NCBI GenBank assembly: GCA_041744215.1
Contig: JBGTLG010000033.1
Location: 32,001-96,000 of the forward strand
DNA length: 64,000 nt
DNA from: Fimbriimonadales bacterium
GTDB taxonomy: Bacteria > Armatimonadota > Fimbriimonadia > Fimbriimonadales > ATM1
Direction of reading: 5' to 3'
Within the stretch, counting starts at the first letter, position 1, and each line of letters begins with the position of its first letter. Below, one piece after another: positions 31,433 to 49,612 of this stretch. Below the pieces are notes generated by a model. That model saw only the letters and a list, made by a program, of their open reading frames with translations. It did not search any database and was not told where the DNA came from. Position numbers and translations under genes: made by a program.

Positions 31433-33115
31433 ATGGGCGAGGGTTGGATCAACCAGCTTCACTATGGCGATAACCTCGAAGTCATGCGGGAGAAGATCCC
31501 GGATGAAGTCGCGGACCTCGTCTACCTCGACCCGCCGTTTAACTCACAGCGGAACTACAACGTCTTATTCAAACAGGTGAAGGGCGATCCGGCTCCGGCG
31601 CAGATTATGGCGTTCGAGGACACTTGGCGATGGAGCCCTATGCTCTACGACGAGTTTATGGAAGACGGGCGCAACGCCAAACTCTTCGACCTCGTGCAGA
31701 GCCTCTACCAAATCTTGGGCGATTCCGAGATGATGGCGTATGTCGTCATGATGGCGCCGCGATTGCTCGAACTTCATCGCAAGCTCAAACCAACGGGCTC
31801 GCTTTACCTGCATTGCGATCCGGTCGCAAGCCACTATCTGAAGATTCTGCTCGACGTTATCTTCGAGCCTCAAAACTTTCGGAATGAGATTACATGGAAG
31901 CGACAGAGCGCCCACAGCGACGCGAAACTCAAGTTTCCTGATGTTGCGGACGTCATCTTGTTCTATTCGAAGAGCAGCCAGACGAAATTCGCGCCCGTGT
32001 TTACTGATCACAATCCCGAATATATAGCAGGCTTCTATCGCTATGACGACAATGATGGGAGAGGCTCTTATCGGAAGGACAACATCGCGAGTCCTAATCC
32101 GCGCCCTAACCTAATGTATGAGTGGAAAGGATTTCCGCATCCGGCTAAGGGGTGGCGGTTCGAGAGAAACACCATGGAAAAGCTGGACTCGGAGGGAAGA
32201 ATCTGGTATCCGAGGCATCCAGACGGATCACCCGACACGTCGAAGCGGCCCCAGGTTAAGCGATACCTTGCAGAGATGAAAGGCTCCATCGTTACGAACG
32301 TCTGGACAGACATAAGCCCCGTTCAATATGCGAGTAGGGAGAGTCGCGGGTATCCAACGCAGAAGCCCCTTGCGTTACTGGAGCGGATCGTCGCTGCGAG
32401 CAGCAAGGAGGGCGACGTCGTACTCGATCCGTTTTGCGGCTGCGGTACTGCCGTGGTCGCTGCCGAGCGAATGGGAAGGCGCTGGATCGGCATCGACGTT
32501 ACGTACCTTGCCATTTCCGAAATCGTCTACCGCCTGACCACAGAAACGACTGCGGTTCGCGACAAGGATTACGAACTGCGCGGGACGCCTAAGGACGAGA
32601 TGTCCGCGCTCAAGTTCTTTGAGGAAACCGCGCCGTACAATCACAAACCCTTCGAAATGTGGGCAGTGCATCTTGTCGAAGGCGAACCCCAGGAAAAGAA
32701 GGGCGGCGACAAGGGCATCGACGGTCGTATTCCGTTTCGAGGCATAGATAAGCAACTTCGCTGGGGCATGATACAGGTGAAAGGCGGTAGCAGCGGGCCA
32801 GCACACGTGCGCGACTTCGCGCGCGTCCTCGACCGCGAGAAGGCGCTGTTGGGGCTGTTTATCTGCTTCCGGATCACGAAGGAGATGCGGGAAGAGGCAG
32901 AAAAGATGGGCTATGCGGCATCCCTCGGCGGCAGCCGCAAGGTGCCCCGGTTGCAGATTCTTACGATCAAGGACCTGCTCGAAAAGAAGAAGGAGTTCGT
33001 AATCCCGGAGGGCTACCGATTGCCGAGGTCGAAGGGTGTTGGGAAGGGGATGAGGGCCAACCAAATCGCCATCAGCTATGAAGAGGCGGAGGTCGCCGGC
33101 ACCGATGAGAACTGA
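31433..33115 (+). CDS. N6A/N4C DNA methyltransferase (beta class) with C-terminal Mrr-like restriction endonuclease domain
   Basis: YLDPPF catalytic motif precedes YPTQKP...[11 protein letters not shown] motif; C-terminal GGDKGIDG...IQVKGG PD-(D/E/Q)xK motif. Confidence 0.88.
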
Positions 33116-33250
33116 GCGAGGAGGAGGCGCCAACTGGCAGATGCCCCCCCCAAGTCTCGGCGCGGTCGTTAGAGGCAGAGATTGGAAGGCGTCCAATGAT
33201 TCACGTTTTGTGTGGTCTGCGACACGGGAGTAGTTACGCGTTCGTGTTGA

Positions 33251-35254
33251 TTACAATGTGCAGTCTTCGCTTATACCGTTTTGAACCCCAAGTTTATCAA
33301 AAAGGATCTTGTTTCGCTGGTTAGCTAGGCGCAAAAGTTTGTGATAGGGCAATAGCTCAAAGTAGGCCATTAGCGTCTCGTGATGCTTGTACCAGCAGCC
33401 CCGGTCGGGCGCCCTGCGAAAGTCCTCCTTCCTCAGCATCTCTTCGATCGCTTTGCTTTCATCACAGACGATATATGCGAACACTGGTGTTTCCCGCAGG
33501 GCTTGCTCAAGCGGCCTTCCTCTCCAGTCCTTGATATTGCCATTCCGTATTGCTTCTATGTGCCGGACCAGCTCCTGATATGGGGTTTCCCTATAGTCCG
33601 TGAGCCCGGGTTTCTTGAACTCGAACAGGATGATTGCGGATGGCGCCTCCCAATTGTCTGTATACGCGAAGCTATGGTCCAGAATCAGAATGTCGGGGCG
33701 GACATCGCTGTTGGCGGCCACCCGACCTTTCCGCGACCTGAGCCCTACGTCGGATGCAATGTATTCCGAGTAAGCCAAGCGCTCATCAAGCAACCAGAGG
33801 TTGTGGCGGTCGTACTCCACTTCATCGTTGGTCTTTCTTCGGGGGAAAATGAGACCGTGGATTACGGACTCAAGATCGTAGTCTTTTTCGCTGTCGGCTT
33901 CTAAAGCACGCTGAAGGAAGTCCAACACGACTTTCCTCATGGCAACATGCTCTGCGAGCGCTGCTTGCCCAGTCTCGCTTACGAGTTCCAATAAGCGCTT
34001 GGTTCGATTACGGATTTCTTCGCGAGAGGGGTCGCCCTCACCTGCTAGAACCTCACGAGCTTCGCGAGCGATTCTTTGCTTTAGTTCGTGCAACGCGCGA
34101 TCCAACGCGGCTAACATGTCATCGGTAGTCGCGTCCGGATTAAGCGCGCAGGCCACTCGTTCGAGTTTCTTTCGTAGCGGCGCGTAGATCGGATGCTCCA
34201 CTATCAGCTTCCGAAGCTTTACTTCCAGAAGAGTGCGGGCACTTTCGAGGTCGGTCCCAATATGTTCGTACACGTCTTGAATCACTTGTCTTCGAATTGT
34301 GGACAAGTCGATGGGAGCAAGTCCCGCTTCATCATCCGCCGATGCATCGGTTTCAGGGATTTCAAGCCTTGACCGATCTGGCGCCATGTGATCATCCAGG
34401 TATCTGCCCGCAACGAAAGCCTCGTAGAAATATCCGTCCGAGCCGCCTAGTTTCCCGGCTAAATTGGGGACGTATCGAGAGAGATTCTCAGTCTTGATGG
34501 CCCGACTGTTCGCGACGTACCTTAAACGATGACCCTGATTGTATGAGCTGCGTCGCCTATATGCAGAAAGCACGAATGTCTCCCCGCCTACATCGATACG
34601 CTTGTCTGGGAACCGATCACCGTCCTGCGCACCGGAAAAATCGTTGAGCCGAAGCGCTTCACCTTGATCGCGAATGACGACATCAGGGGAGTTGTCAGAG
34701 TGTACTAGCATGAAGCGATCCAGAATCTGCTCTGCGATCTCTGTCAAAGTGCGAGGCGAGTTCTCGGCGTACTCCTGCCTAAGTTCACGAAGCACTACAC
34801 GCGTGCGTGTGTCTTGATCAGGGACAAGCTGCTCTTCGATCTGCGACCTATCAAGTTCTGGATCGCGTCCGAAAACGAAAGCGCGCTTTCGAAACTCGCC
34901 ATCGTTATAAACACTCTCAATCTCGGCTCTCTCGAACACCTTCAGCCACGAAAGGCGCCCGATCCCTTGCCCGCCTATTTCCGCCTTATACGGGGAGTCC
35001 GTTTCCAGGAATGAGTCTAGATTCTCGTCTGTGAACCCAATGCCATTGTCGGTGATTTCCACGTGTGCGATGTCACCGGCAATGCCCGCAAACATCGGAG
35101 GGTTTCGTACGATGTTGACCTCTACCTTTCCATCTTCTCGTTTGGTCGCTTGAATGGCCTCTATGGAGTTAACAATCGCCTCCACTACCGGGACCATGGT
35201 TCGCCTGGGGGCCACCCTGACCTTCTCTAGTCTCCTACGGAAATTCTGTTTCAT
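33251..35254 (-). CDS. GHKL (HSP90/MORC-like) ATPase fused to a C-terminal PD-(D/E)xK nuclease
   Basis: EAIVNS, DNGIG, GGQGIGR GHKL motifs; NLWLLDERL, RPDILI, EFKKPG nuclease motifs. Confidence 0.82.
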   Translation of the reverse strand: MKQNFRRRLEKVRVAPRRTMVPVVEAIVNSIEAIQATKREDGKVEVNIVRNPPMFAGIAGDIAHVEITDNGIGFTDENLDSFLETDSPYKAEIGGQGIGRLSWLKVFERAEIESVYNDGEFRKRAFVFGRDPELDRSQIEEQLVPDQDTRTRVVLRELRQEYAENSPRTLTEIAEQILDRFMLVHSDNSPDVVIRDQGEALRLNDFSGAQDGDRFPDKRIDVGGETFVLSAYRRRSSYNQGHRLRYVANSRAIKTENLSRYVPNLAGKLGGSDGYFYEAFVAGRYLDDHMAPDRSRLEIPETDASADDEAGLAPIDLSTIRRQVIQDVYEHIGTDLESARTLLEVKLRKLIVEHPIYAPLRKKLERVACALNPDATTDDMLAALDRALHELKQRIAREAREVLAGEGDPSREEIRNRTKRLLELVSETGQAALAEHVAMRKVVLDFLQRALEADSEKDYDLESVIHGLIFPRRKTNDEVEYDRHNLWLLDERLAYSEYIASDVGLRSRKGRVAANSDVRPDILILDHSFAYTDNWEAPSAIILFEFKKPGLTDYRETPYQELVRHIEAIRNGNIKDWRGRPLEQALRETPVFAYIVCDESKAIEEMLRKEDFRRAPDRGCWYKHHETLMAYFELLPYHKLLRLANQRNKILFDKLGVQNGISEDCTL

Positions 35255-35475
35255 AGACCTTCCCTTCGCTCGGGCAATTCGTCGTTGATCTCAATGGCAG
35301 CGCATGCTGCACATCTGGCTGCATCCAATCAATAATACCAACTGAGGGGTTTCTGGTGACCTTTTTTTGGGCGGCGGGGGCTCTAACCTACACACCTAAC
35401 TGGAGGTGCCTCTATGAAGGCGCGACTCTCAATGGCGTTCCGTTTGGCTCCAGCGCGAAGTCTGCGCGCGCAGAT

Positions 35476-35751
35476 CTACTTGTCTTTCTCGAAAATCTGA
35501 TTGAACGGCCAAACTGTTTTGAAGTCGTAGCCAAGCTTCTCGAAGTCGGCCCTTGTCATGGGTCTAGTTCTGCCGTTTTCATCTTTGGTCAATAGGCAGC
35601 TCTGAACCCGTCCGGAAAGGATCGCCGCAACATCTGCCGAAAACCGGGGATCGACGCCAAGAAGCTCCTCCGCCTGCTTGGCAGTTCTTACCTTGTTCTC
35701 CTTTTTTCCCTTTATCACTTCTTGTTCCACCACGCTCGTGTCCGCTCTCAT
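35476..35751 (-). CDS. Hypothetical protein
   Basis: 91 aa ORF upstream of the GHKL gene on the same strand; no family recognised. Confidence 0.35.
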   Translation of the reverse strand: MRADTSVVEQEVIKGKKENKVRTAKQAEELLGVDPRFSADVAAILSGRVQSCLLTKDENGRTRPMTRADFEKLGYDFKTVWPFNQIFEKDK

Positions 35752-35857
35752 TCAGACCGAGGAACCCCGCCCTATGCGTCTCATTGCACCTGAGTCTTTT
35801 GATGCAAAGGGCGCGCACGCGCACCAACCTTTGTGGTCAGTTGCTCTACGTTCCCTT

Positions 35858-35895
35858 CAGTTTACTGAATCGAAGAACGCCCACTTGCCCCAACG
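35858..35895. repeat. 38-bp direct repeat, copy 1
   Basis: CAGTTTACTGAATCGAAGAACGCCCACTTGCCCCAACG, identical to 36387-36424. Confidence 0.92.
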
Positions 35896-35957
35896 GATCC
35901 CGGGGCATATAAATGGGGCTCACGTAGAATGGCGGCAAGGTGTACACTGGTGGCGTT

Positions 35958-36266
35958 ATGATGAAGCTAATGTTAGGTTGGCTACTTGCGATCGCTATCG
36001 CTGTGGTGGTGTTCGGTCTTGCGGTGGATCACCCGGTCGCCAATGGGATTTATCTGGCGGCGATGACGGTGTTCGCGGCCGGTGCGACGTTCGGCGGGGT
36101 GGTTATGGCGTGGCTTATGGTCCGCGCGGCTCTTCGGGGTGACCTGTTCCGGGACACTCGCAGCCGCATGGGTCGGGACGTAGGTTTCGGGAAGGGCGGT
36201 CCTGCCCCGGTTGTTCGGACGGACGAGGAAGCGCTCCAGGAGTTCCTTGATCGAAGCCGTTATTAG
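35958..36266 (+). CDS. Small membrane protein (2 transmembrane helices)
   Basis: Two hydrophobic segments and a charged tail; lies between the 38-bp repeats. Confidence 0.55.
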   Translation: MMKLMLGWLLAIAIAVVVFGLAVDHPVANGIYLAAMTVFAAGATFGGVVMAWLMVRAALRGDLFRDTRSRMGRDVGFGKGGPAPVVRTDEEALQEFLDRSRY

Positions 36267-36283
36267 GTGTAGGATCTGCGGGG

Positions 36284-36386
36284 TTAGACGTGTTCTCTGA
36301 CGAGTCCTACGACTTGGCCGATCAGTTCGCATCTTAGGGTTTCGAGGGGCGGATAGTCGGGGTTGTCGCTTTTCAGGATGGGCTCG
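36284..36386 (-). pseudogene. C-terminal fragment of an S24 (LexA/phage CI-like) peptidase
   Basis: EPILKSDNPDYPPLETLRCELIGQVVGLVREHV* matches the S24 tail L.S.NP.Y..I...IG.VV; truncated exactly at the repeat. Confidence 0.65.
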
Positions 36387-36424
36387 CAGTTTACTGAATC
36401 GAAGAACGCCCACTTGCCCCAACG
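36387..36424. repeat. 38-bp direct repeat, copy 2 (continues into a long hairpin ending at 36463)
   Basis: Identical to 35858-35895. Confidence 0.92.
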
Positions 36425-36564
36425 ACGGACGCTCCTAACGTCGCGTCCGTCGATTGGGCAAGTCGTTTGAGGCAGGTGACCCTCCGGCAGATCGCGGTCT
36501 CTGGTTAAGGGCCGAGAGGAGCGTAAAGCCACCCGGCCCTGGTCAGCTAAGAGGAACTTCGCTT

Positions 36565-37335
36565 CTACTTCTTTCTTCGCCGCGCGGCCAGAGCCGCAAG
36601 GCCGATGCCGAGGATCGCCAAGCTTGCAGGCTCGGGGACCGCATACCCGACGCCCGTTTCGCCGGAAAAGGCAGCGCGGATATGAAGCTGCGCTGGGTTG
36701 GCCATCGGATCGTATAGCGCTGGGATCCAGCCGGTGGGTCGGTCGATGAAATCCAAATGACCTCGCATCACGCCGCTTTGGCCTATCAACTGGTTTCGGA
36801 TAGCGATCTCGCCGCCAACAATTGTGCCGACGCCCTCGAGCACGTAGGCGTCGAAATCCGAATATCCGTACAGCGAAACGGCATCGAGTTCGAGCGCCCA
36901 CAGCACGCCGAACGGCATACCGAGGGAGGGGATCGAGCCCATGATGACGAGGTCTGGACCTGCTGCGTCGGCGCCCGTACCGGTTAGGCTTACGTCTATC
37001 ACTCCGCCCGGGCCGGCGTATGGCGCGTCTTGGCCGGTGAATATGACTTGCATCCCGAAGTCGCCGCCGAACTCGCCAGCGGCGTTGAAGATCGGATGGA
37101 CCGGCGGGGCCGGCCAGGTTGGCCAATAGGCAGTCACCTCGGTATCCAATGATCCGAGAGTGTAAGAAAGCAGATCGGGCGCCACGCCCCTTGTGCTCCA
37201 CTCTGGCATCGGCACCGTCCTATTGAACGCACCGAAGTTTATGTCGTGGCCGGTTATCGTTGGTGTGAGCGGCGCGGCCATCGCGGCCGATCCCATCAAT
37301 GCTGCCGACGCCCATAAGAAGGCTCTGCTTATCAT
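36565..37335 (-). CDS. PEP-CTERM sorting domain surface protein
   Basis: Signal peptide; C-terminal VPEPASLAILGIGLAALAARRRKK; AAGGAG RBS. Confidence 0.92.
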   Translation of the reverse strand: MISRAFLWASAALMGSAAMAAPLTPTITGHDINFGAFNRTVPMPEWSTRGVAPDLLSYTLGSLDTEVTAYWPTWPAPPVHPIFNAAGEFGGDFGMQVIFTGQDAPYAGPGGVIDVSLTGTGADAAGPDLVIMGSIPSLGMPFGVLWALELDAVSLYGYSDFDAYVLEGVGTIVGGEIAIRNQLIGQSGVMRGHLDFIDRPTGWIPALYDPMANPAQLHIRAAFSGETGVGYAVPEPASLAILGIGLAALAARRRKK

Positions 37336-37722
37336 CGTTTTCTCTCCTTGGCCTCCGGATAAAAATCCCGTTTGGCCTTAGGGCCTCAATCCGGCCCGGT
37401 TACAGGGTATCACAACTGGCATCGACGTGGGCTGTGGGTGCGCAAAACTGGTAATTCTACCGTGGCGCAGGGCGGCGTTCCTCTTGGGTGATGCGGTTTT
37501 CGGATGACGTTGTTGTTGGCGTTGGGATTCGTGTAATTCGGGGGGTCTTGAGAATGGAAGCGGTGCGATGTGCAGATGGCCAAACCTCGCTCCGATCTCA
37601 ATGGCACTCGCCTGATCCTCGAACAACCGCGCTGGTATCTGTCGCCCGTAAAATTGCCATCGTTTGGCATAGGCATATAGATTGCTATATAATCAGGGTT
37701 CACTATCTGGTTGGGGGCAGGC

Positions 37723-38472
37723 ATGATCACAATTCTTTTAGCAGCAACTTTCGGGGTGACTCTCGCACAGGGAGGCCCGGAGTCCTTCTTCTGCTCGTCC
37801 GTTCGTTTCGGATACACGGGGACCATTTCGGTTTACAACACGTTTGCCGAAGCTCAATCGGGTAGGAATCCTCGGCACTCCTCTGTCGTGGTTCCTAACC
37901 GCGACGGCGCGATCTACATAGTTCGCAACCGTCCGACTTTCTATGAGGACTTCAATGCGTTTTTGACGTTTTGGAGTTCGCATGAAGGGCAGAACCCAAA
38001 CAACACAAACTTAGGTTTTATTCAGATGTATGACGACGACGCGTCGAACTGGCTCAACCAGAAGGGCTACTGGAATAGAAGCAAGACCACTTTTACTGTT
38101 GAGGCGATGGGCCGGAACGCTACTTATCCGTCCGGCGCGAACCCGGGCGACTATGCGCGCCTGTGGAATGCTGGTGCGGTGCAAGGCAGCGGCGAATCGA
38201 CGAAAGGCACGTTTTTGCGCTACGAGTACAAGTTCATCGTGACTGGAGTTCAAGGCACGGACGACGATCAAGATGGGTTTTTCGAGTACCGCGGTCCCGA
38301 TGGTCAGTTTTCCGGATACTTCAAGGGGATTTTCGAGAACGAGAGCGCATCTTCGCCAGGATCAAACGGCTTCTACGTTGTTGAACTTTCATTCAATAAC
38401 ACGAGTTGGTCAGTTGCAAACAACTTTACGAAGAACAACGCGTTCGGTTCGTCTCGCACTCAGGGTAACTGA
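37723..38472 (+). CDS. Secreted hypothetical protein (aromatic/Asn-rich, beta-rich)
   Basis: Signal peptide; long ORF; downstream hairpin. Confidence 0.7.
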   Translation: MITILLAATFGVTLAQGGPESFFCSSVRFGYTGTISVYNTFAEAQSGRNPRHSSVVVPNRDGAIYIVRNRPTFYEDFNAFLTFWSSHEGQNPNNTNLGFIQMYDDDASNWLNQKGYWNRSKTTFTVEAMGRNATYPSGANPGDYARLWNAGAVQGSGESTKGTFLRYEYKFIVTGVQGTDDDQDGFFEYRGPDGQFSGYFKGIFENESASSPGSNGFYVVELSFNNTSWSVANNFTKNNAFGSSRTQGN

Positions 38473-38479
38473 GCCACAA

Positions 38480-38509
38480 ATAGGGCGTGGACGAATTGCC
38501 GCGCCCTAT
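38480..38509. terminator. Hairpin between convergent genes
   Basis: ATAGGGCGTGG...CCGCGCCCTAT. Confidence 0.6.
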
Positions 38510-38517
38510 ATGTCTTC

Positions 38518-42235: not shown

Positions 42236-42538
42236 ATGTTTCAACTTGTCGGTGTAGACGTTTACCTGAGATCTGAAGGTGTTCCCGAAGTTCCGCGCGA
42301 ACACGGTCCTTTCAAATTGATTTTCATATCCAATCGCGGCACTCGCGTTTGGCCAAACAAAATCGAAGGCTTTTCGATGATCGATTGGCCGCGGTGTCGG
42401 TATGAAGCGGACGGCGAGATTTCTGACAATGATGTCGAGGGACTGGTGAGCGCGCTTACCCACGGCGGCTTCACATGGACGAAGTGTCAGAAGCTCTATC
42501 GCAAAGACGGGGAGAACCAATACAGTCAGCCTTATTGA
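42236..42538 (+). CDS. Stand-alone homolog of the C-terminal domain of Thermus-type isocitrate dehydrogenase
   Basis: LVGVDVY...FKLIFISNRGTRVWP...DWPRCRY...WTKCQKL..DG...YSQ parallels the T. thermophilus IDH tail (VGVDVF, ISNRGTQVYP, RCRF, EKL). Confidence 0.75.
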   Translation: MFQLVGVDVYLRSEGVPEVPREHGPFKLIFISNRGTRVWPNKIEGFSMIDWPRCRYEADGEISDNDVEGLVSALTHGGFTWTKCQKLYRKDGENQYSQPY

Positions 42539-42569
42539 GGCGTGGGTCGTTTGACGAAGTAGAAAAGAT

Positions 42570-43568
42570 ATGCCATACGATGTTTGTTTGATTCGTGGAG
42601 ACGGGATTGGGCCGGAGATCACTGCGGCGACAGAAAAGATCATCGCAGCCGCGGGCGTTGCAATCAACTGGATCGAAGTCGATGCGGGATTGCGGTGTGT
42701 CGAAGCTGGTGAGCCGATTGTTCCGGACAGGACGCTGAAGAAGATCGAGGAAGTTGGGATCGCGCTCAAGGCGCCGATGACGACACCGATTGGGAAGGGT
42801 TCTGTTTCGCCGAATGTAACGCTACGGAAGCGACTGGATTTGTACGCTTGTGTGCGCCCTGCGAAGTCGTTACCGGGCGTGCCGACCCCTTTCGAGGGGC
42901 TCGACATCGTCATCTTCCGCGAAAACACAGAGGATCTCTACGCGCAGATCGAATACATGGAGACGCCGACGGTCGCGATGTCGACCAAACTCATTTCGGA
43001 GATGGGAGCGGAGAGGATTGCCCGCGCGGCGTTTGAGTATGCGCGGAAAAACCGTCGTCGCGCTGTGACATGCGTTCACAAAGCGAACATCATGAAGATT
43101 TCGGACGGCCTTTTTCTGCGCACTTTTCAGCGCGTTGCGGCCGAGTATCCTGACGTAGAGTCGTGGGACGTTATTGTGGATGCGCTCTGTATGCAGTTGG
43201 TGACGAAGTGGCGGATGTTCGATGTTTTGGTATTGCCAAACTTGTATGGCGATATAGTGAGCGATCTCGCTGCGGGCATGATGGGCGGTTTGGGTGTTGC
43301 GCCCGGCGCGAATTATGGAGACAAAGCCGCGATTTTTGAAGCGGTGCATGGCTCCGCGCCGAAATATCAAGGGCTCGACAAAGTGAATCCGATGGCGCTA
43401 TTGCTGTCCGGGACTTTGATGTTGCGGCACATCGGCGAAGACGCTGCGGCGATTCGGATCGAGAAAGCGGTCGAGACGACTTTGGTTAAGGGGATCAAGA
43501 CGTACGATTTGTTCGGCTCTGCTAAGACGAGCGAGTTCGCGGATGCGGTTTGTTCGGAACTGGGTTAG
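42570..43568 (+). CDS. icd: Isocitrate/isopropylmalate dehydrogenase family, probably isocitrate dehydrogenase
   Basis: GDGIGPEI, SPNVTLRK, RENTEDLY, HKANIMK, NLYGDIVSDLAAG, FEAVHGSAP. Confidence 0.85.
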   Translation: MPYDVCLIRGDGIGPEITAATEKIIAAAGVAINWIEVDAGLRCVEAGEPIVPDRTLKKIEEVGIALKAPMTTPIGKGSVSPNVTLRKRLDLYACVRPAKSLPGVPTPFEGLDIVIFRENTEDLYAQIEYMETPTVAMSTKLISEMGAERIARAAFEYARKNRRRAVTCVHKANIMKISDGLFLRTFQRVAAEYPDVESWDVIVDALCMQLVTKWRMFDVLVLPNLYGDIVSDLAAGMMGGLGVAPGANYGDKAAIFEAVHGSAPKYQGLDKVNPMALLLSGTLMLRHIGEDAAAIRIEKAVETTLVKGIKTYDLFGSAKTSEFADAVCSELG

Positions 43569-44740
43569 TTCGTCAGCTTATCGAGCGCCTTCTTGAGATT
43601 TGGCGACGGTTTGCCGTAGCTGTGCGCTTCCCCCAGAGTTGTTCGGATGAGGCCGGAAGAGCGATCATATTCGATCATAACGACCACTTTTGCGCGGCGC
43701 AGTACGAGTTTCGCGGTGGGAGTGAACTTCTTTGGAGCGGAGGCCTGATCTACGTCGGCGTCTTTAACTTCGACGGACTGCCTTCCATTGGAAACGGTGA
43801 TCGCGCCGATGCCGAGGTCCCAACGCAAAGGCGCGGCTTTGCCGCCGCCGAATGGCGAGTACTTCTTCACACTCCAGACTGTTCCAGAGTTTGGATCCAC
43901 GTATCCACCGAATGCGGCCACGTCGGTCTTTACCGATTCACCCATGCTGGGTTGGAATGCAGAAAAGCAGTAAGCAAGCGTCGATTCATTCGTTCCGATG
44001 AGATCGAGTACGGATTGCGGCACGGCGTTGACGTTCTGATTGATGTGCTGGGGTTTCGGGTTCCAGATCACCAATTCCGCCACCTCGACGTTGAGTGTGC
44101 TGGCTCCGAAGTTGGTGTAGACGTGGGCGGCGAAGTTGTAGATCGCCGCTTCGAGTGAAATCGAAACCTGAAACGATGTGGGCGGATTTGGGAGCCTGGG
44201 GTCACGAGTTAATCCGGTCAAGCGACCGGTGTTGTAGTCGATAAGAGCGGCGATGCGATGCTCAGGATGAAAGAAAATACTCTCATGGGTAGGCAGGTAA
44301 GCCAGAACATAGGCCGGAAAGCCATTCGCATTCAACTCCCGCACGAACTGCTTGACAACCACCGGCTGCGTGCACCCACTCGCTGCGACGTATTCAGTTC
44401 CGAGGGCCATGGCTAGATTGTCGCCAATAGCATTCTGGTGGTCCCATGACTCGGGCGGAGGGAATACGCGATCCGGAGGGGAATAGCTGAAGCCCACGAT
44501 GAGATGATCTGACCTGCGCAGGCGTACCCTGCCATCCGGGAAGGCAAAGACATACACGTCCGGAGTGTGATCTGCGCTCTCCAACTCAAACACGGGAACA
44601 TACAGATTCGAGTACGTTCCGTTTGCGGTCGCCGCCATGTCGCGGAAAGCCCGGGCTTTTGCGAGAGCGACTGCCTCGTCGTCCACCTGAACCAGAAACC
44701 CCGCAACGACCGCTGGGACCAATAGCGCAGTTATCATCAT
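43565..44740 (-). CDS. Secreted PepSY-like repeat protein, paralog 1
   Basis: Signal peptide, AGGAG RBS; IDYNTGRL and VDPNSGTV PepSY-type hairpin motifs; paralogous to the next two genes. Confidence 0.8.
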   Translation of the reverse strand: MMITALLVPAVVAGFLVQVDDEAVALAKARAFRDMAATANGTYSNLYVPVFELESADHTPDVYVFAFPDGRVRLRRSDHLIVGFSYSPPDRVFPPPESWDHQNAIGDNLAMALGTEYVAASGCTQPVVVKQFVRELNANGFPAYVLAYLPTHESIFFHPEHRIAALIDYNTGRLTGLTRDPRLPNPPTSFQVSISLEAAIYNFAAHVYTNFGASTLNVEVAELVIWNPKPQHINQNVNAVPQSVLDLIGTNESTLAYCFSAFQPSMGESVKTDVAAFGGYVDPNSGTVWSVKKYSPFGGGKAAPLRWDLGIGAITVSNGRQSVEVKDADVDQASAPKKFTPTAKLVLRRAKVVVMIEYDRSSGLIRTTLGEAHSYGKPSPNLKKALDKLTN

Positions 44741-44817
44741 GTATCTCCTGGCGCGTTCCTCGAGGCGCGGCCCGCAGGCTTCGCGGACCAAAGATAGGAC
44801 GTGCGACCAGGGGAAGG

Positions 44818-44862
44818 AAGACGAGCGAGTTCGGGGATGCGGTCTGCGCGGAGTTGGTTTAG
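44818..44862 (+). repeat. Duplicated icd 3' end (KTSEFGDAVCAELV*)
   Basis: Homologous to 43524-43568; first 16 bp identical. Confidence 0.9.
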
Positions 44863-46037
44863 CCCGTGAGCCGATCGAGCGCCTTCTTGAGATTCGGCGA
44901 CGGTTTGCCGTAGCTGTGCGCTTCTCGCAGGGTTGTGCGGAGGAGACCGCTTGTTCGGTCGTATTCGATCATGACAACGACTTTTGCGCGTCGGAGTACG
45001 AGTCTCGATGAAGCGTTGAAGGCTTTTGGTGCGGGAACTCGATCGACGTCAGCGTCCTTGACTTCGATCGAATGTCTTCCGTTCGAGGCAATAATCTCTC
45101 CGAGTCCCAGATCCCAACGAAGCGGCGCCAGCTTACCGCCGCCGCCGCCGAATGGCGTGTATTGCTTCACGCTCCAGACTGTGCCTGAATTTGGATCTAC
45201 GTAGCCCTCGAAAAAGGCGACGTCGGTCTTCGTCGATTCGCCCATGCTCGGTTGGAACGCCGAAAAGTAGTAAACGAGGGTCGATTCGTTCGTGCCGATG
45301 AGGTCGAGTACGGCTTGCGGCACGTTGTTCGCAGACTGATTGATGTCCTGCGGCTTCGGGTTCCAAATCACTAATTCTGCCCCATCGATGTTGAGGTTGC
45401 TTGCACCGTAGTTCGAGTAAACCCAGGACGCGAAGTTGTAGAGGGCGGTCTCCGGAGAAATCGAGGATTGGAGAGAGGCGGGTGGATTAGGGGTGTTCTC
45501 CGGACCGAAGTAACCGGTCAGGCGTCCGGTGCTTGGCTCAATCACAGCGAAGGCTTGATATCCACCGTCGAACGGAATTCCATTGTAAGTCGGGGCACAA
45601 TTGAAAACGTATCCCGGCCGACCGGAAACATTATTCTCCCGGCGGAGGCGCATCACCACAAAGTTGAGGGAATGCCCCGCTGCCGTCAAGTAGTTCATTG
45701 CCAATGCAACGGCCGCCGAGTCGCCAATTGCGTTCAGGCTATCCCACGTTTCAAGCGGTATAGCTTCGTCCAGCGGGGAAAAACTGAAGCCGACAACCAG
45801 GTGATTAGAGCGAAGCAGGATCACGCCGCCGTCCTTGAACTCGAAGACATACTTATCCGAACTGTGATCGGTGCCCCTCAATTCAAATACAGGACTGTAC
45901 AGATTCGAGTACGTTCGGTTTGCCGTCGCCGCCACGTCGCGGAACGCCCGGGCTTTTGCGAGAGCGACTGCCTCGTCGTCCACCTGAACCAGAAACCCCG
46001 CAACGACCGCTGGGATCAAAAGTGCAGTTATCATCAT
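44859..46037 (-). CDS. Secreted PepSY-like repeat protein, paralog 2
   Basis: N-terminus nearly identical to paralog 1, C-terminus nearly identical to paralog 3, divergent middle. Confidence 0.8.
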   Translation of the reverse strand: MMITALLIPAVVAGFLVQVDDEAVALAKARAFRDVAATANRTYSNLYSPVFELRGTDHSSDKYVFEFKDGGVILLRSNHLVVGFSFSPLDEAIPLETWDSLNAIGDSAAVALAMNYLTAAGHSLNFVVMRLRRENNVSGRPGYVFNCAPTYNGIPFDGGYQAFAVIEPSTGRLTGYFGPENTPNPPASLQSSISPETALYNFASWVYSNYGASNLNIDGAELVIWNPKPQDINQSANNVPQAVLDLIGTNESTLVYYFSAFQPSMGESTKTDVAFFEGYVDPNSGTVWSVKQYTPFGGGGGKLAPLRWDLGLGEIIASNGRHSIEVKDADVDRVPAPKAFNASSRLVLRRAKVVVMIEYDRTSGLLRTTLREAHSYGKPSPNLKKALDRLTG

Positions 46038-46114
46038 GTATCTACGGGCGCGTTCCTCGAGGCGCGGGCCCCAGGCTTCGCGGACCTAAGATAGGATGTG
46101 CGACCAGGGAACGG

Positions 46115-46159
46115 AAGACGAGCGAGTTCGGCGACGCGGTTTGCGCTGAAGTGGCTTAG
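46115..46159 (+). repeat. Duplicated icd 3' end (KTSEFGDAVCAEVA*)
   Basis: Homologous to 43524-43568; first 16 bp identical. Confidence 0.9.
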
Positions 46160-47325
46160 CCCGTGAGCCGATCGAGCGCCTTCTTGAGGTTCGGCGACGG
46201 TTTGCCGTAGCTGTGCGCTTCTCCCAGGGTTGTGCGGAGGAGACCGCTTGCTCGGTCATATTCGATCATGACAACGACTTTTGCGCGTCGGAGTACGAGT
46301 CTCGATGAAGCGTTGAAGGCTTTTGGTTCGGGAACTTGATCGACGTCAGCGTCCTTGACTTCGATCGATTGTTTTGCGTTGGAAACGGTGATCGCGCCGA
46401 TTCCGAGGTCCCAACGCAAAGGCGCGGCTTTGCCGCCGCCGAATGGGAAGTACTGCTTCACGCTCCAGACTGCGCCCGAGTTGGGATCGACATATCCGCC
46501 GTAACCGGAAATGTCCCGCTTCCCTTCCGCGTATCCGCTCGGCTGCACGGCCCAGAAGCAATAGACTAGAACCGAGTCGTTGGTTCCAATCAAGTCGAGT
46601 ACCGATTGAGGCAGACTATGGGATTCATAGCTGATATGCGACGGTTGTGGATTCCATATCACCAGTTCCGAAGTCTCCACGTTGATATTGCTGGCACCGT
46701 AAGTGGTGAAGACGTGCGCAGCAAAGTTATAAAGCGCCGTTTCATGTGGCACAGACGTCAGAAATGAAGCCGGTGGATTCGGCAATTCGGCGTCCCGTAC
46801 GAGAAACAAGAGGCGACCCGTGTTGTATTCCACCAAAGTTGATATTGCGTACTGAGGATGGTAGAGTACGCTGTTGTGAGCAGGAAGATGTGTCATTGAG
46901 TAAGCTACATACATGACTGCATGCAGATCTCGCTCAAAGTACTTGAGGACGCATGGCTGCGAGCAACCACTCGCTTCGATGTACTGGCCTGCAAGCGTCT
47001 GTGCAGCTGAATCGCCGATCGCGTTCTGGGCATCCCACGTATCGAGAACTGGCCGTGCCGCATCCGGCGGTGAGAAACTGAAACCGACGATGAGGTGATC
47101 CGAGCGGCGAATGCGCACTCCCCCATCTGCAAAATAGAAGTGATAAATCTCAGCGTTGTGATCGGTTTTTTCAAGCTCGAATACTGGAGAATATTGGTTC
47201 GAATATGTTCCGTTCGCGCTCGCCGCTGTCTCACGAAATGCTCGCGCTTTATTGAGCGCAGTTACTTCGTCGTCATAAACGAAGCCTGTGGACAACAAAA
47301 CTGGCAGCAGAACAATTGAGGTCAT
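46156..47325 (-). CDS. Secreted PepSY-like repeat protein, paralog 3 (translationally coupled to the upstream protease-like gene)
   Basis: ATGA overlap at 47322-47325, AGGAGG RBS, signal peptide MTSIVLLPVLL. Confidence 0.8.
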   Translation of the reverse strand: MTSIVLLPVLLSTGFVYDDEVTALNKARAFRETAASANGTYSNQYSPVFELEKTDHNAEIYHFYFADGGVRIRRSDHLIVGFSFSPPDAARPVLDTWDAQNAIGDSAAQTLAGQYIEASGCSQPCVLKYFERDLHAVMYVAYSMTHLPAHNSVLYHPQYAISTLVEYNTGRLLFLVRDAELPNPPASFLTSVPHETALYNFAAHVFTTYGASNINVETSELVIWNPQPSHISYESHSLPQSVLDLIGTNDSVLVYCFWAVQPSGYAEGKRDISGYGGYVDPNSGAVWSVKQYFPFGGGKAAPLRWDLGIGAITVSNAKQSIEVKDADVDQVPEPKAFNASSRLVLRRAKVVVMIEYDRASGLLRTTLGEAHSYGKPSPNLKKALDRLTG

Positions 47326-48677
47326 TGGCTTCCTCCTGGTGGATTGTTTGGCGTTCCCCCTCCGAAACTTGGCGGGTTGATCAGAATCCACTGGGTTCCT
47401 GTTCCCCCGTATACACCCATCAGTTTCATGTTCCCGTCTCCTACAATTCGAGGGTACGCCCTCGAAATCGATTCATACTGTCCAGCGCGTGGAATGACTC
47501 CGGCACTGATCAAGTCACCGATCACTTTTCCAACCGTCTTGCCGGCCGTCAAATCGCTAAAGAACTTCTCGGCCCAAATGGCGAGGTCAGTAATGTCTCC
47601 AGGGTTCAACGCAGGCGGCGGTCCGTGAGCAAACAATGAGAAGCTCCATCCTACATAGGCTCTATTCTTTGAACCCGATGTTATCGAACCGCCAGGTCCA
47701 AGGACAACATTTGCTATCTCAAAAGCAGCGGCAGGCGTTCTCCCGCTGTCGCGCCCAGTCGTGTCGCAAGCCATCAAGACGACAAGATTGTACGGCGGAG
47801 CGTTCGCCGGATTCGGATCAAGTACCCAGTCTTTGATGTTGGACCAAGTCGCTTCCAGTGGCTGCGGCTGCATAGCAACAGAAGGATAGACACCGCGCTG
47901 GTCGCCATGAGTAATGCCGACCAGCACCGTGCTCTTGCGTATCAGCTCGGTCAATTGTGATAGCGAGACGGATTGTGAATCATCGAACGGCTTTGGCTCT
48001 GCCGTGTGATTCATTCCTTCGAGCGCGCCACCGGCTATGTTGATGCACTCCTTAGCCTTCGAAGACTCCGGCGAACCCGGTGGCACGGCGGTTGCGACAA
48101 GTCCAGCTTTGTTGTACACCTTGATGTCCACTTCGACGACCAGTTCCTTCGTAGAGGTCTCCTGCACATACGTAACTCCGCCGTCGTATGAGACGAGCCA
48201 ATACCCCTCGAATTTCGCGCGAAGGCGGATTTTGCCCTGAGTGTTATCTGGGAAATGGGTCGAAGAGAAGCGCACTCCGTAGCCGTAGGTTGGAGTCGGC
48301 TCATAACTGACCTGCGGCATCGGAGGATCATTCTCGCCAGAGGGGTTTCCCGCTTCCTCCCCCAGGATCTTCAGCTCGAATTCCACAATGCGGACTCCGG
48401 CCCAGTTGTCAATCGCGAAGGGATCATAGCCAGGTGTTCCCATCGGAATCTCTCCCGCTCCAGCATGCACACCGAACTCGACGCTCGTTCCGCTGACAAG
48501 GGTGGGAGAGTGCGATGACAGGACATCCTCTCCACTTACGCTGACCGAGAGTCTTTTCCCTTTGTGATCAAGGGTTACCGCGCCCGGGGGCGGCGGATCG
48601 GGGGAACCACCTCCACCCGTTTGCCCGAACAATCCAGCGCCGAGTAGCGACGCAGCGACGATCCATCCTACTCTCAT
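47322..48677 (-). CDS. Secreted protein with a clan CD (caspase/CHAT/gingipain-like) peptidase domain
   Basis: Signal peptide; hydrophobic strand + HG (VLVGITHG) and strand + AC (LVVLMACDT) dyad; AYVGW, FFSDL..GKTV, IVGD. Confidence 0.7.
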   Translation of the reverse strand: MRVGWIVAASLLGAGLFGQTGGGGSPDPPPPGAVTLDHKGKRLSVSVSGEDVLSSHSPTLVSGTSVEFGVHAGAGEIPMGTPGYDPFAIDNWAGVRIVEFELKILGEEAGNPSGENDPPMPQVSYEPTPTYGYGVRFSSTHFPDNTQGKIRLRAKFEGYWLVSYDGGVTYVQETSTKELVVEVDIKVYNKAGLVATAVPPGSPESSKAKECINIAGGALEGMNHTAEPKPFDDSQSVSLSQLTELIRKSTVLVGITHGDQRGVYPSVAMQPQPLEATWSNIKDWVLDPNPANAPPYNLVVLMACDTTGRDSGRTPAAAFEIANVVLGPGGSITSGSKNRAYVGWSFSLFAHGPPPALNPGDITDLAIWAEKFFSDLTAGKTVGKVIGDLISAGVIPRAGQYESISRAYPRIVGDGNMKLMGVYGGTGTQWILINPPSFGGGTPNNPPGGSQ

Positions 48678-48689
48678 CAATATAGTACA

Positions 48690-48722
48690 AGTATAAGAGA
48701 GAGAGAGAGAGAGAGAGAGCAA
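48690..48722 (-). promoter_or_regulatory. Putative phase-variable promoter with a (CT)12 microsatellite spacer
   Basis: TTGCTC (-35, 48722-48717), 21-bp CT spacer, TATACT (-10, 48695-48690); (AG)12 at 48696-48719 on the plus strand. Confidence 0.65.
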
Positions 48723-48730
48723 CAGTATTT

Positions 48731-49612
48731 TTACTGGGTTTTAGGCTCATCAGGATCGGTTTTTGGGACGGCTTGCTGGCGATTAGAGAAGCAGACCGCC
48801 AGCGCGATTCCGCCGAGGGTGGCGATGGAGGCGACGATCAGACGCATCGTGATCTGCTCCGAGAGAAGGAGCGCACCTGCGAACGCCGTTAGGATTGGGA
48901 CCGAAAGCTGGACGATGGCGGCGCGTGTCGAGGTTAGGCTTGGCTGCACCGCGTACCACAAGATGTAGCCGAGACCCGACGTGACGACCCCTGAAACAAC
49001 CGCGTACACAACGCCGACGTTTGTGAACTCGATTTGCGAGAAGAGAACTGCGGACAATGCGATTGCGAAAGGCGCGGACCAGCGGAAGTTCTCTGCCGTT
49101 GCGAGGGCAGGATGCTCAGCGCCTCGTCCGCGCAAAGTGTATGCCCCCCACGCGATTCCGGCGATGGCCATGAACGCCGCACCGAGCGGATCAGGCGCTG
49201 ATAGGCCAGGCGAGACGAGATAGACCAAGCCGCAGAGCGCGATCAAAAGCCCCAACCATTCTTGAAGTCCCGGACGCTCCCCGCGCACGATCCCATAAGA
49301 GATCATCGTCGCTTGCACCATGCCGAAGAGAATCAGCGCGCCGACGCCGGATTCGAGCGAAACGTATGCGAACGAGAACGCGATCGCATACAGCGCAAGC
49401 ATAAAGCCGGAGATCGCATTGCCAGCACCCTTTTGTTTTGAGCGAAGCGAGAACAGTAGCCAAAGCGCGATTGCGCCAGAGACGAGCCGGATCGTGGTGA
49501 AGCTCGCCGCATCGATTTGTTCTTCGCGCAGAGCCAGCCGACAAAGAATCGAATTGCTCGCAAATGCGGCGAGAGCGAGAGCTGTCAGCAGACCTGCGCG
49601 AAGCGGTGACAA
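48731..49612 (-). CDS. DMT/EamA family transporter
   Basis: About 10 transmembrane helices; FASNSILCRLAL, SGLGYILWY. Confidence 0.88.
   Translation of the reverse strand: MSPLRAGLLTALALAAFASNSILCRLALREEQIDAASFTTIRLVSGAIALWLLFSLRSKQKGAGNAISGFMLALYAIAFSFAYVSLESGVGALILFGMVQATMISYGIVRGERPGLQEWLGLLIALCGLVYLVSPGLSAPDPLGAAFMAIAGIAWGAYTLRGRGAEHPALATAENFRWSAPFAIALSAVLFSQIEFTNVGVVYAVVSGVVTSGLGYILWYAVQPSLTSTRAAIVQLSVPILTAFAGALLLSEQITMRLIVASIATLGGIALAVCFSNRQQAVPKTDPDEPKTQ

What the first reader, a model, noticed from the sequence alone, without database searches (positions are those of the whole stretch)
43524..46159. Three recoded copies of the icd 3' end delimit the cassettes (insertion with gene-tail replacement)
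Seen: the last 45 bp of icd (43524-43568) recur at 44818-44862 and 46115-46159. The first 16 bp (AAGACGAGCGAGTTCG) are identical. The rest keeps frame and stop codon and differs largely at silent positions (gtt/gtc, tgt/tgc, gaa/gag, gat/gac, ctg/ttg), giving KTSEFADAVCSELG*, KTSEFGDAVCAELV* and KTSEFGDAVCAEVA*. Established: E. coli e14 and phage 21 integrate into icd and supply a replacement 3' end. Inference: each tail was under coding selection as a real icd end, so cassettes were added sequentially at a 16-bp core while icd stayed intact. No integrase is visible in the window, so any recombinase acts in trans or the process is homology-driven.
Basis: partly seen in the sequence, partly recalled or inferred. 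Interest (0 to 1): 0.8.

Follow-up and report, generated by a model that had tools for sequence, protein, structure and literature searches.

The report
Tandem gene copies duplicating icd's end
Three tandem copies of a secreted-protein gene lie beside the isocitrate dehydrogenase gene of a hot-spring bacterium, and each carries a 45-base duplicate of that gene's end, which is best read as local duplication and gene conversion rather than a phage-like insertion system.

Summary
The last 45 nt of the Iso_dh gene (43524-43568) recur at 44818-44862 and 46115-46159. The first 16 nt are identical, and that 16-mer occurs nowhere else in the 2.68-Mb genome.

The tails are not free-standing boundaries. 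They are the left ends of three ~1.3-kb head-to-tail units. Each unit is a diverged paralog (P1-P3, minus strand) of a rare Fimbriimonadia-restricted secreted protein with a PepSY/propeptide-like fold. The stop codon of each P overlaps the icd-frame stop (TTAG).

P3 is translationally coupled to an upstream gene Q, and the Q-P pair is conserved in other genera. A congener (G001) keeps a footprint of the same icd/P adjacency, but its breakpoint lies at a different position in the tail.

No recombinase is in the window, no att or attC structure is present, and the family is absent from the phage and plasmid collections. The units are a patchwork of gene-conversion tracts.

The most likely origin is segmental duplication with one breakpoint 45 nt inside icd, followed by unequal crossing-over and conversion. 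The spare tails vary in an icd-like way (wobble bias, invariant core; post hoc P about 0.004-0.05). A past as live icd ends, or import of units from other lineages, therefore stays open. This is an ordinary kind of event with a curious detail.

The parts
42236..42538 (+). Small ORF (100 aa) that matches the C-terminal domain of bacterial isocitrate dehydrogenase. It is encoded separately and upstream of the catalytic ORF.
   Evidence: Pfam PF18324, E 5.8e-17. NCBIfam NF006673 profile positions 374-478.
42570..43568 (+). icd-like gene (332 aa, Iso_dh family). Its best NCBIfam matches are isocitrate dehydrogenases, all below equivalog cut-offs because the C-terminal domain is a separate ORF.
   Evidence: Pfam PF00180, E 2.7e-100. 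NCBIfam NF006673, 388 bits against a cut-off of 509. It is 93% identical to the G001 orthologue.
43524..43568 (+). Tail 1, the live icd 3' end (KTSEFADAVCSELG*). The 16-nt core is 43524-43539.
   Evidence: The same peptide ends the nearest icd homologue, P0102.
43565..44740 (-). P1, a secreted PepSY-like paralog. Its TAA stop overlaps the icd TAG within TTAG.
   Evidence: ORF. It is 69% identical to P2. No Pfam or NCBIfam family was found.
44741..44817 (-). 'up1', a 77-nt leader of P1 with AGGAG ahead of the ATG. It ends at junction 1 (…GGGGAAGG|AAGACG…).
   Evidence: It differs from up2 at 8 of 77 positions. No match was found elsewhere in G000 or in four relatives, and it shows no similarity to the 3' end of Q.
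44818..44862 (+). Tail 2, a spare copy of the icd end (KTSEFGDAVCAELV*). The core is 44818-44833.
   Evidence: A junction-spanning contig exists in run X1.
44859..46037 (-). P2 (392 aa). The model has three helix-plus-sheet modules and a C-terminal beta domain.
   Evidence: AlphaFold2 pLDDT 91.8. Foldseek top hits are the YpeB C-terminal domain (E 9.6e-7) and vibriolysin/fungalysin propeptides.
46038..46114 (-). 'up2', the leader of P2. It ends at junction 2 (…GGGAACGG|AAGACG…).
46115..46159 (+). Tail 3, a spare copy of the icd end (KTSEFGDAVCAEVA*). The core is 46115-46130.
   Evidence: A junction-spanning contig exists in run X1.
46156..47325 (-). P3 (389 aa), the paralog coupled to Q. Its 5' end and upstream sequence are unrelated to those of P1 and P2.
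   Evidence: The ATGA stop/start overlap with Q is read from the sequence.
47322..48677 (-). Q (451 aa), a secreted protein with invariant His and Cys residues (THG … C). It is the upstream partner of P in a conserved two-gene module.
   Evidence: Q-P adjacency holds in all 5 other loci examined, one each from five genomes. The fold model is of low confidence. ESM Atlas gives only a lead to CHAT/caspase-like proteins.
48698..48743 (.). (GA)n microsatellite and AT-rich stretch upstream of Q, probably the module's promoter region. It is homologous to a (CT)n stretch upstream of the G001 module.
   Evidence: Sequence. blastn matches 48710-48743 to L017 4985-5018, 82% over 34 nt.
48731..49612 (-). 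EamA-family transporter gene, the right flank of the ~5.2-kb segment that is absent from this position in G001.
   Evidence: Pfam PF00892. Synteny with G001.

Best explanation
The three 'icd tails' are by-products of local segmental duplication. A two-gene module, Q followed by P (a putative secreted peptidase-like protein and a PepSY-like protein), already lay tail-to-tail against icd, with the P stop overlapping the icd stop.

One illegitimate duplication had its left breakpoint 45 nt inside icd and its right breakpoint about 77 nt upstream of a P start. It created a junction (leader|AAGACG…). Because the left copy keeps the full gene, icd stayed intact, and each further unit begins with a severed copy of the icd end. 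Unequal crossing-over then raised the copy number, copying that same junction.

The units have since diverged strongly in the centre of P. Short gene-conversion tracts keep overwriting their ends.

The spare tails have no function of their own. Their icd-like pattern of variation comes either from occasional re-copying from the live end (conversion, or unequal exchange at the core) or from chance in a 29-nt sample.

Shown: the anatomy, the single-origin junction, the mosaic, the ancestral icd/P adjacency, and the absence of recombinase and att structure.

Inferred: the order of events and the recombination pathway.
For: 1. Homology covers whole units, with periods of 1294 and 1297 nt, and begins exactly at the core.

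2. Both junctions have the same breakpoint, and their adjacent 77 nt differ at only 8 of 77 positions. One junction was formed and then copied.

3. The units are a conversion mosaic:
- alignment columns 101-150: all pairs 96-98% identical;
- columns 151-300: u2=u3 at 94-100%, while u1 is about 72%;
- columns 301-400: u1=u3 at 90-91%;
- columns 1151-1379: u1=u2 at 89-96%;
- columns 701-950: all pairs 36-64%.
By codons, pS is 0.03-0.04 for P2/P3 codons 321-393 and 0.13 for P1/P2 codons 1-40. Elsewhere it is mostly 0.6-0.9.

4. Q-P is a resident module. Q lies directly upstream of a P homologue in all 5 loci examined, one each from genomes G044, G050, G038, G013 and G010.

5. The icd/P adjacency predates this genome.
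- In congener G001, the relocated P is followed by GCCAGCTCTG, which matches the antisense of G001's own icd end at 9 of 10 positions (local alignment 23 of 27 identities plus one gap). A 125-nt, 89.6% copy of an internal ClpC-like segment comes next.
- G001's EamA gene is cut short at residue 275 of 293 and ends LTRR*, like P's LT[RGN]*.
- That breakpoint in the tail is not at the 16-nt core.

6. The same behaviour occurs elsewhere. G044 has Q-P-P'. The two paralogs are 45% identical over the 291 residues that BLASTP aligns, with about 78 identical C-terminal residues (218 nt at 97%), and a relic of the P 3' end lies upstream of Q.

7. There are no signs of mobility.
- No integrase, transposase or resolvase family was found in 59 of 61 window ORFs.
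- The 3 PF00589 genes are on contigs C35, C15 and C27, not C33.
- No inverted repeats lie at the tails, and no conserved RNA or DNA hairpin was found (0 compensatory pairs).
- There are no P homologues in 72,556 plasmid or 50,697 phage records.

8. T2-T3 divergence (7 of 45) does not differ significantly from that of the adjacent non-coding leader (8 of 77; Fisher P=0.41). Simple same-age neutral decay is therefore not excluded.
Against: 1. The right end of unit 3 and the 77-nt leaders of units 1 and 2 share no detectable homology (21-28% identity over columns 1301-1379; local alignment no better than shuffles). The leader occurs nowhere else. A plain duplication of the present P3 unit does not explain where the leader came from.

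2. The centre of P2 is 74% identical to P0002 from another organism, but only 29% to P3 and 41% to P1. The centre of P3 is 73% identical to P0007 and 62% to P0004. Each of those proteins appears to share a contig with one Q homologue, judged by matching longest-contig lengths. The paralog lineages are therefore older than this genome, or they were imported.

3. The spare tails vary like coding sequence.
- In the icd frame pS is 0.62 and pN 0.15. Four of the other five frames have pN/pS ratios above 1. The fifth is the P-frame caveat below.
- Third positions hold 6 of 10 variable sites (P=0.042).
- No variable site falls in the core (P=0.004).
- For T2-T3 alone the combined P is 0.015.
- All these tests are post hoc on 26-45 nt.
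- The antisense frame that continues P past its stop shares the wobble phase and scores the same (ratio 0.26).

4. Synonymous divergence among the tails (0.62) is as deep as between the icd genes of G000 and G001 (0.65).
Confidence: 0.55

Rival explanations
1. Stacking of allelic units from other lineages. Related strains or species each carry icd-tail-P-Q with a different, deeply diverged P type. DNA from such a donor recombined with a homologous anchor in icd on one side and an illegitimate join on the other (homology-facilitated illegitimate recombination; mechanism recalled, not tested). This placed the donor's live icd end and its P gene in front of the resident tail. Each spare tail was then once a real icd end, but without any site-specific machinery.
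For: The P centres have closer relatives in other organisms than within the array: P2-P0002 74% against P2-P3 29%, and P3-P0007 73%.

Those organisms show one near P homologue each, apparently on the same contig as a Q homologue, judged by equal longest-contig lengths of 48436, 49190 and 1342751.

The tails show wobble bias and an invariant core, as in real alleles. In 8 orthologues the core differs from G000 at 1-6 of 16 positions and the rest of the tail at 6-17 of 29.

T2 and T3 carry the CAEL motif of the live ends of G001 and P0103. T1 carries CSELG, as does P0102. All pairwise distances among T1, T2, T3 and the G001 end are 6-8 of 26.

The leader of units 1 and 2 is foreign to the resident Q-P3 junction.

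A DprA-like ORF (22361-23185) and a pilin-like ORF (58934-59755) are in the window. This is only weak support for natural competence.
Against: None of the 120 nearest icd cluster representatives ends in the T2 or T3 peptide. V at position 13 (T3) and V at the last position (T2) are seen in none of them.

The two junctions are copies of one junction. At most one illegitimate import is needed, and the rest is unequal exchange.

The donor loci could not be read.

The neutral model is not strongly rejected.
Confidence: 0.25
2. Site-specific cassette integration. In it, 1.3-kb single-gene cassettes, each with a replacement icd end, integrate at the 16-nt core through a recombinase encoded elsewhere, as e14 does at icd or as integron cassettes do at attI.
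For: The units are bounded by an exact 16-nt repeat that is unique in the genome. Each holds a single gene in the same orientation. Three tails for two added units plus a resident gene fits the n+1 rule. The genome has three tyrosine recombinases, one with a 499-aa open frame.
Against: The units are homologous throughout and are paralogs of the resident P3. No recombinase is in the window or on the contig. No inverted repeats or attC-like fold are present.

The core is simply a well-conserved, codon-biased stretch of icd. L032 (G008) has the identical 16-mer in its live gene.

The related G001 rearrangement broke the tail elsewhere. The family is absent from the phage and plasmid collections, and the core occurs at no other site.
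Confidence: 0.05
3. Assembly artefact. Three co-occurring strains each have one P allele next to icd, and the assembler strung the alleles together.
For: The genome is a 42-contig metagenome-assembled genome. Related sequences are present at low depth in runs X2-X4.
Against: Leader-to-core junctions cannot arise from single-copy loci. Both junctions are present as error-free 200-nt contigs in a second assembly. Their depths (17.3 and 18.7) equal those of the single-copy flanks and of each unit body (16.7-17.1), not one third of it.
Confidence: 0.03

Closest known systems
e14 prophage at icd in E. coli K-12 (live icd end supplied by the element; icdC pseudo-end at the far side)
   Same: A duplicated icd 3' end keeps the gene intact. 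The live and spare ends differ by synonymous and conservative changes. Recombination between them would give a chimeric but functional icd. This comes from passages of PMC13626634 read, which cites Hill et al. 1989.
   Different: e14 is a 15.1-kb element with its own site-specific excision system that responds to SOS. Here there is no recombinase. The units are 1.3-kb paralogs of a resident gene, there are three copies, and the repeat is only the edge of unit-long homology. The icd here is a 332-aa split form, not an orthologue of the E. coli type at equivalog level.
Tandem segmental duplication with a breakpoint inside a flanking gene, then unequal crossing-over and gene conversion (concerted evolution of tandem paralogs). 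This is general knowledge, recalled.
   Same: Units are head-to-tail. A truncated copy of the flanking gene sits at every junction. The junctions are identical, depth is uniform, and identity tracts form a mosaic.
   Different: The truncated copies are short (45 nt), remain in frame, and vary in a coding-like way. The rightmost unit lacks the leader that the others share.
Integron gene-cassette arrays
   Same: Both are a series of single-gene units in one orientation, separated by a short recurring boundary.
   Different: There is no IntI nearby, no attC-type imperfect inverted repeat, and the cassettes are mutually homologous.
PepSY-domain proteins and M4/M36 protease propeptides (YpeB C-terminal domain 5boi; vibriolysin propeptide 3nqy_A). 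This concerns the P protein only.
   Same: The fold is shared: repeated helix-plus-four-strand modules. Foldseek gives E 9.6e-7 and 2.7e-5 with probability 1.00. P is partnered with a putative peptidase-like gene.
   Different: There is no Pfam PepSY hit at E<=0.01. TM-scores normalised to the query are 0.26-0.34. An extra C-terminal beta domain is present. An inhibitor or chaperone role is inferred, not tested.

Membership tests
e14-like integrative element using icd as attB | The element encodes, or is adjacent to, an integrase/excisionase. | tested here: not met
   59 of 61 window ORFs of at least 90 aa were scanned with Pfam, and none matched an integrase, transposase or resolvase family. 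PF00589 hits are on contigs C35, C15 and C27 only.
e14-like integrative element using icd as attB | The att core repeat flanks cargo that is not itself repeated. | tested here: not met
   The units are homologous over about 1.15 kb from the core onward.
e14-like integrative element using icd as attB | A replacement gene end keeps the target gene's frame and function. | tested here: met
   All three tails are in frame and stop at TAG. The stop is also P's own stop codon.
e14-like integrative element using icd as attB | Excision yields a circle and a restored or chimeric icd. | not testable with these tools
   Only contigs were available, and these drop rare forms. No core-to-core joint was listed.
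Integron cassette array | IntI integrase with an adjacent attI and promoter. | tested here: not met
Integron cassette array | An attC site (imperfect inverted repeats that fold as a hairpin) at each cassette's 3' end. | tested here: not met
   No inverted repeat lies at the tails. The consensus fold is -7.3 kcal/mol with 0 compensatory pairs among 16.
Tandem duplication array with concerted evolution | Head-to-tail units with homology across the unit and a constant period. | tested here: met
   The periods are 1294 and 1297 nt.
Tandem duplication array with concerted evolution | The junctions are identical by descent. | tested here: met
   The breakpoint is the same in both, and 69 of 77 adjacent nt are identical.
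Tandem duplication array with concerted evolution | Near-identity tracts form a mosaic between different pairs of copies. | tested here: met
Tandem duplication array with concerted evolution | The rightmost unit runs into the original flank through the same sequence as the other units' right ends. | tested here: not met
   Unit 3 lacks the 77-nt leader, and its 5' end is unrelated.
Isocitrate dehydrogenase (icd) | Iso_dh domain and an IDH-type equivalog score. | tested here: inconclusive
   PF00180 gives E 2.7e-100. The best NCBIfam models are IDH models, but all score below their cut-offs (388 against 509) because the C-terminal domain is a separate upstream ORF.
PepSY domain family (P proteins) | Sequence match to Pfam PepSY, and a PepSY-like fold. 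| tested here: inconclusive
   No Pfam family was found at E<=0.01. The fold matches YpeB and protease propeptides.

The most novel reading that the evidence does not exclude
The array is a homology-driven add-and-drop device. Exchange at the invariant 16-nt core between the live icd end and coding-competent spare ends adds or sheds 1.3-kb P units, within the cell or with DNA taken up from other strains. Every exchange regenerates a working icd. The spare tails are therefore held under second-order coding selection, and an essential gene serves as the safe anchor for shuffling a hypervariable secreted-protein family.
Probability: 0.12. Interest if true: 0.6.

Novelty: new member of a known kind. 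Interest (0 to 1): 0.3.

Why it matters
If the best explanation holds, this is a clear worked example of how tandem duplication next to an essential gene leaves in-frame pseudo-ends. It is also a caution against reading every duplicated gene end as an att site.

The side results have some value:
- A rare two-gene module restricted to Fimbriimonadia, a putative Cys/His peptidase-like protein with a PepSY-like partner. The partner gene repeatedly multiplies in tandem and undergoes conversion of its C-terminal domain.
- A footprint showing how the module moved 5 kb in a congener by duplication and reciprocal deletion.

If the spare tails really are kept coding-competent, the locus would show selection acting on sequence that is only potentially expressed.

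Tried and rejected
- Metagenome scans for P relatives (480 pattern matches, none confirmed) and for the tail pattern (0 matches) found nothing. Arrays in close strains could therefore not be surveyed.
Instead I ran tblastn against phages and plasmids, with no match.
The cluster look-up gave no context.
- Contigs of four runs showed no core-to-core deletion or circle joint. Contigs cannot show rare forms, so this says nothing either way.
- I tested the idea that the antisense tail is a terminator or structured 3' UTR of P. There was no covariation, and no terminator-like site lies at the tails (7 sites in the region against 4.9 expected, none at a tail).
- I tested the idea that the 77-nt leader is a decayed 3' end of Q. 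The local alignment score was 14, against a shuffle mean of 13.5.
- The AlphaFold2 model of Q was too poor to search (pLDDT 51.7). ESM Atlas gave only a lead to CHAT and DUF6345.
- Earlier findings of this scan held nothing for this place or sequence. One query was malformed.
- A first literature query was malformed and was re-sent.

Full report
**What is there.** The window is part of contig C33 of a 42-contig, 2.68-Mb metagenome-assembled genome. Its nearest protein homologues are named Fimbriimonadales or Armatimonadetes by their sources. The public runs that hold the stretch are labelled hot-springs metagenome.

An Iso_dh-family gene, here called icd, runs 42570-43568 on the plus strand (PF00180, E 2.7e-100). 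Its best NCBIfam models are isocitrate dehydrogenases, all below cut-off. Three paralogous genes follow on the minus strand: P1 43565-44740, P2 44859-46037 and P3 46156-47325. After them come gene Q (47322-48677), a (GA)n tract and an EamA-family transporter gene.

The 16-nt core is identical in all three copies. The copies differ at 7, 8 and 7 positions, all between the core and the stop. With up to one mismatch, the core occurs only at these three places in the genome.

**The tails are the edges of 1.3-kb repeat units.** An alignment of the three stretches shows homology from the first base of the core across the whole P gene, with periods of 1294 and 1297 nt. To the left of the core, unit 1 is icd coding sequence. 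Units 2 and 3 there carry the 77-nt leader of the preceding P gene.

The two leader|core junctions have the same breakpoint, and the leaders differ at only 8 of 77 positions. One junction was therefore made and later copied.

In each unit the P stop codon (TAA, read on the minus strand) overlaps the icd-frame TAG within TTAG. The preserved stop in the spare tails therefore needs no icd selection.

**It is not an assembly artefact.** Logan contigs of run X1 include error-free 200-nt contigs across both junctions. Their depths are 17.3 and 18.7, the same as icd, the unit bodies and the right flank at 16.7-17.1. Three strain alleles strung together would each have a fraction of the flank depth and would have no leader|core junctions. 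X1 may be the source sample, so this is an independent assembler rather than independent data.

**What the genes are.** P has no Pfam or NCBIfam family. It is rare: a profile search found 88 cluster representatives among 1.84 billion. It was found in 9 of 61 related genomes and in 19 of 228 genomes of the class, counting G000.

With 50 aligned sequences, AlphaFold2 gives a confident model (pLDDT 91.8). It has three helix-plus-sheet modules and a C-terminal beta domain. Foldseek's best hits are the PepSY-containing YpeB C-terminal domain (E 9.6e-7) and the propeptides of vibriolysin and a fungal M36 protease.

Q ends in TGA overlapping the P3 ATG (ATGA). A Q homologue lies directly upstream of a P homologue in all 5 loci examined, one each from G044, G050, G038, G013 and G010. 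Q has invariant His and Cys residues (THG…C). ESM Atlas gives a lead to CHAT/caspase-like clusters, but the fold model was too poor to test this (pLDDT 51.7).

My reading of the module as a secreted peptidase-like protein with a PepSY-like partner is an inference.

**Comparison with a congener.** In G001, icd (93% identical) abuts the EamA gene directly, with a 4-nt TTAG overlap. About 5.2 kb (P1-P3 and Q) is therefore extra at this position in G000.

G001 has one P (57% identical to P2). It lies on the other side of the ClpC-like/McsB/icd block. A 43-codon remnant of Q and a homologous (CT)n promoter stretch precede it.

Directly after its stop comes GCCAGCTCTG. This matches the antisense of G001's own icd end at 9 of 10 positions (local alignment 23 of 27 plus one gap). 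A 125-nt, 89.6% copy of an internal ClpC-like segment follows.

G001's EamA protein stops at residue 275 of 293 and ends LTRR*, like P's LT[RGN]*. The four other EamA homologues found align to residues 280-285.

I read this as follows:
- The icd/P tail-to-tail adjacency is ancestral to both genomes.
- G001 reached its present order by duplication of module plus block, followed by reciprocal deletions.
- The break in the icd tail in that event lay about 10-14 nt from the stop, not at the 45-nt core.

This argues against a fixed recombination site.

G011 is flagged as unpublished. It supplied one of the 12 relatives' icd ends and one EamA hit. No conclusion rests on it.

**A mosaic of conversion tracts.** Identity was computed in 50-column windows:
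- all three units are 96-98% identical in columns 101-150;
- u2=u3 (94-100%) in columns 151-300;
- u1=u3 (90-91%) in columns 301-400;
- u1=u2 (89-96%) from column 1151 to the junction;
- all pairs fall to 36-64% in columns 701-950.

Codon analysis agrees. pS is 0.03-0.04 for P2/P3 codons 321-393, 0.13 for P1/P2 codons 1-40, and 0.27 for P1/P3 codons 281-320. Elsewhere it is mostly 0.6-0.9.

The same pattern appears independently in G044. There two tandem P paralogs are only 45% identical over the 291 residues that BLASTP aligns, yet they share about 78 identical C-terminal residues (218 nt at 97%). A relic of a P 3' end lies upstream of Q.

Local duplication, deletion and conversion are thus habits of this module.

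**No sign of a mobile element.** Pfam scans of 59 of the 61 non-overlapping ORFs of at least 90 aa in the window found no integrase, transposase or resolvase. The two ORFs not scanned are the truncated first ORF and the ClpC-like gene.

The three PF00589 genes of the genome are on other contigs. There are no inverted repeats at the tails, no conserved hairpin, no terminator-like site at a tail, and no P homologue in the plasmid or phage collections.

The core is simply a conserved, codon-biased piece of icd. In 8 orthologues it differs from G000 at 1-6 of 16 positions, and the rest of the tail at 6-17 of 29. L032 (G008), which was not part of that 8-orthologue set, has the identical 16-mer in its live gene.

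**Do the spare tails look like former live ends?** Partly.
- Six of the 10 variable sites are third codon positions (hypergeometric P=0.042).
- In the icd frame pS is 0.62 and pN 0.15 (ratio 0.24). Four other frames give ratios of 1.2-3.2.
- None of the 10 variable sites falls in the core (P=0.004).
- For T2 against T3 alone, the two effects combine to P=0.015.
- Distances among T1, T2, T3 and the live G001 end are all 6-8 of 26.
- Synonymous divergence among the tails equals that between the G000 and G001 icd genes (0.65).
- T2 and T3 carry the CAEL motif of the live ends of G001 and P0103. T1 carries CSELG, as does the nearest homologue P0102.

Several points count against this reading:
- The tests are post hoc on 26-45 nt.
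- The antisense frame that continues P beyond its stop shares the wobble phase and scores the same (0.26).
- T2-T3 divergence (7 of 45) is not significantly above that of the adjoining non-coding leader (8 of 77, P=0.41).
- None of the 120 nearest icd cluster representatives (of 184 hits at E<=1e-150) ends in the T2 or T3 peptide. Val at position 13 (T3) or at the last position (T2) occurs in none of them.

**What the simple duplication model leaves unexplained.**
- The leader shared by units 1 and 2 has no counterpart upstream of P3, where Q ends. It has no match elsewhere.
- The centres of P2 and P3 have closer relatives in other organisms than in the array: P2-P0002 74%, P3-P0007 73%, P2-P3 29%.
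- Those organisms seem to have one P beside one Q (contig identity judged only from equal contig lengths).

Either the paralogs are old and their ends are kept alike by conversion, or units were imported from other lineages through recombination anchored in icd.

**Verdict.** My estimates for each reading:

| Reading | Probability |
|---|---|
| In-situ segmental duplication, unequal crossing-over and gene conversion | about 0.55 |
| Import and stacking of allelic units by one-sided homologous recombination | about 0.25 |
| Site-specific cassette integration | about 0.05 |
| Assembly artefact | about 0.03 |

The e14 analogy holds for the outcome, an intact icd with spare in-frame ends (passages of PMC13626634), but not for the mechanism.

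Noticed in passing
window 42236-43568: The isocitrate dehydrogenase is split and permuted. A 100-aa ORF matches the C-terminal domain (profile positions 374-478 of NF006673) and lies upstream of the 332-aa catalytic ORF (positions 6-342). tblastx shows the same order in G001, G009 and G002.
   Followed up: partly
L017 6919-7042 (G001): A 125-nt, 89.6% copy of an internal segment of G001's own ClpC-like gene (L017 4539-4661) sits just after the relocated P gene. It is joined to about 10 nt of antisense icd end at a short TG…CAA microhomology.
   Followed up: yes
window 48698-48720 and L017 about 4985-5018: A (GA)n/(CT)n dinucleotide repeat lies in the presumed promoter region of the Q-P module in both congeners. 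Its length differs between them, so it could act as a slippage-based expression switch.
   Followed up: no
window 30705-38517: The stretch between a PALP-family gene and the ClpC-like gene has no counterpart at that position in G001. It holds an N6/N4 DNA methylase with a NACHT-associated inactive REase domain, a 667-aa HATPase_c protein and several ORFs without families. It may be a variable defence-type island.
   Followed up: no
window 43799 / 44646 (runs X2, X3): Low-depth contigs (3.3 and 4.5) join 44646 back to 43799 with 31 unmatched letters between. They may come from a related strain with a different or fused P arrangement.
   Followed up: no
L079 3866-7815 (G044): The order is Q-P-P', with a 218-nt, 97% identical patch (spacing 1294 nt) in otherwise 45%-identical paralogs. 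An 82-nt relic of a P 3' end lies upstream of Q.
   Followed up: partly
window 47322-48677: Q proteins keep the invariant residues H141, H224, T256-H257-G258 and C304 across 7 aligned sequences. This is reminiscent of clan CD (caspase/gingipain-like) peptidases, a motif resemblance recalled from memory. The only computed lead is ESM Atlas (CHAT 0.95, DUF6345 0.94).
   Followed up: partly
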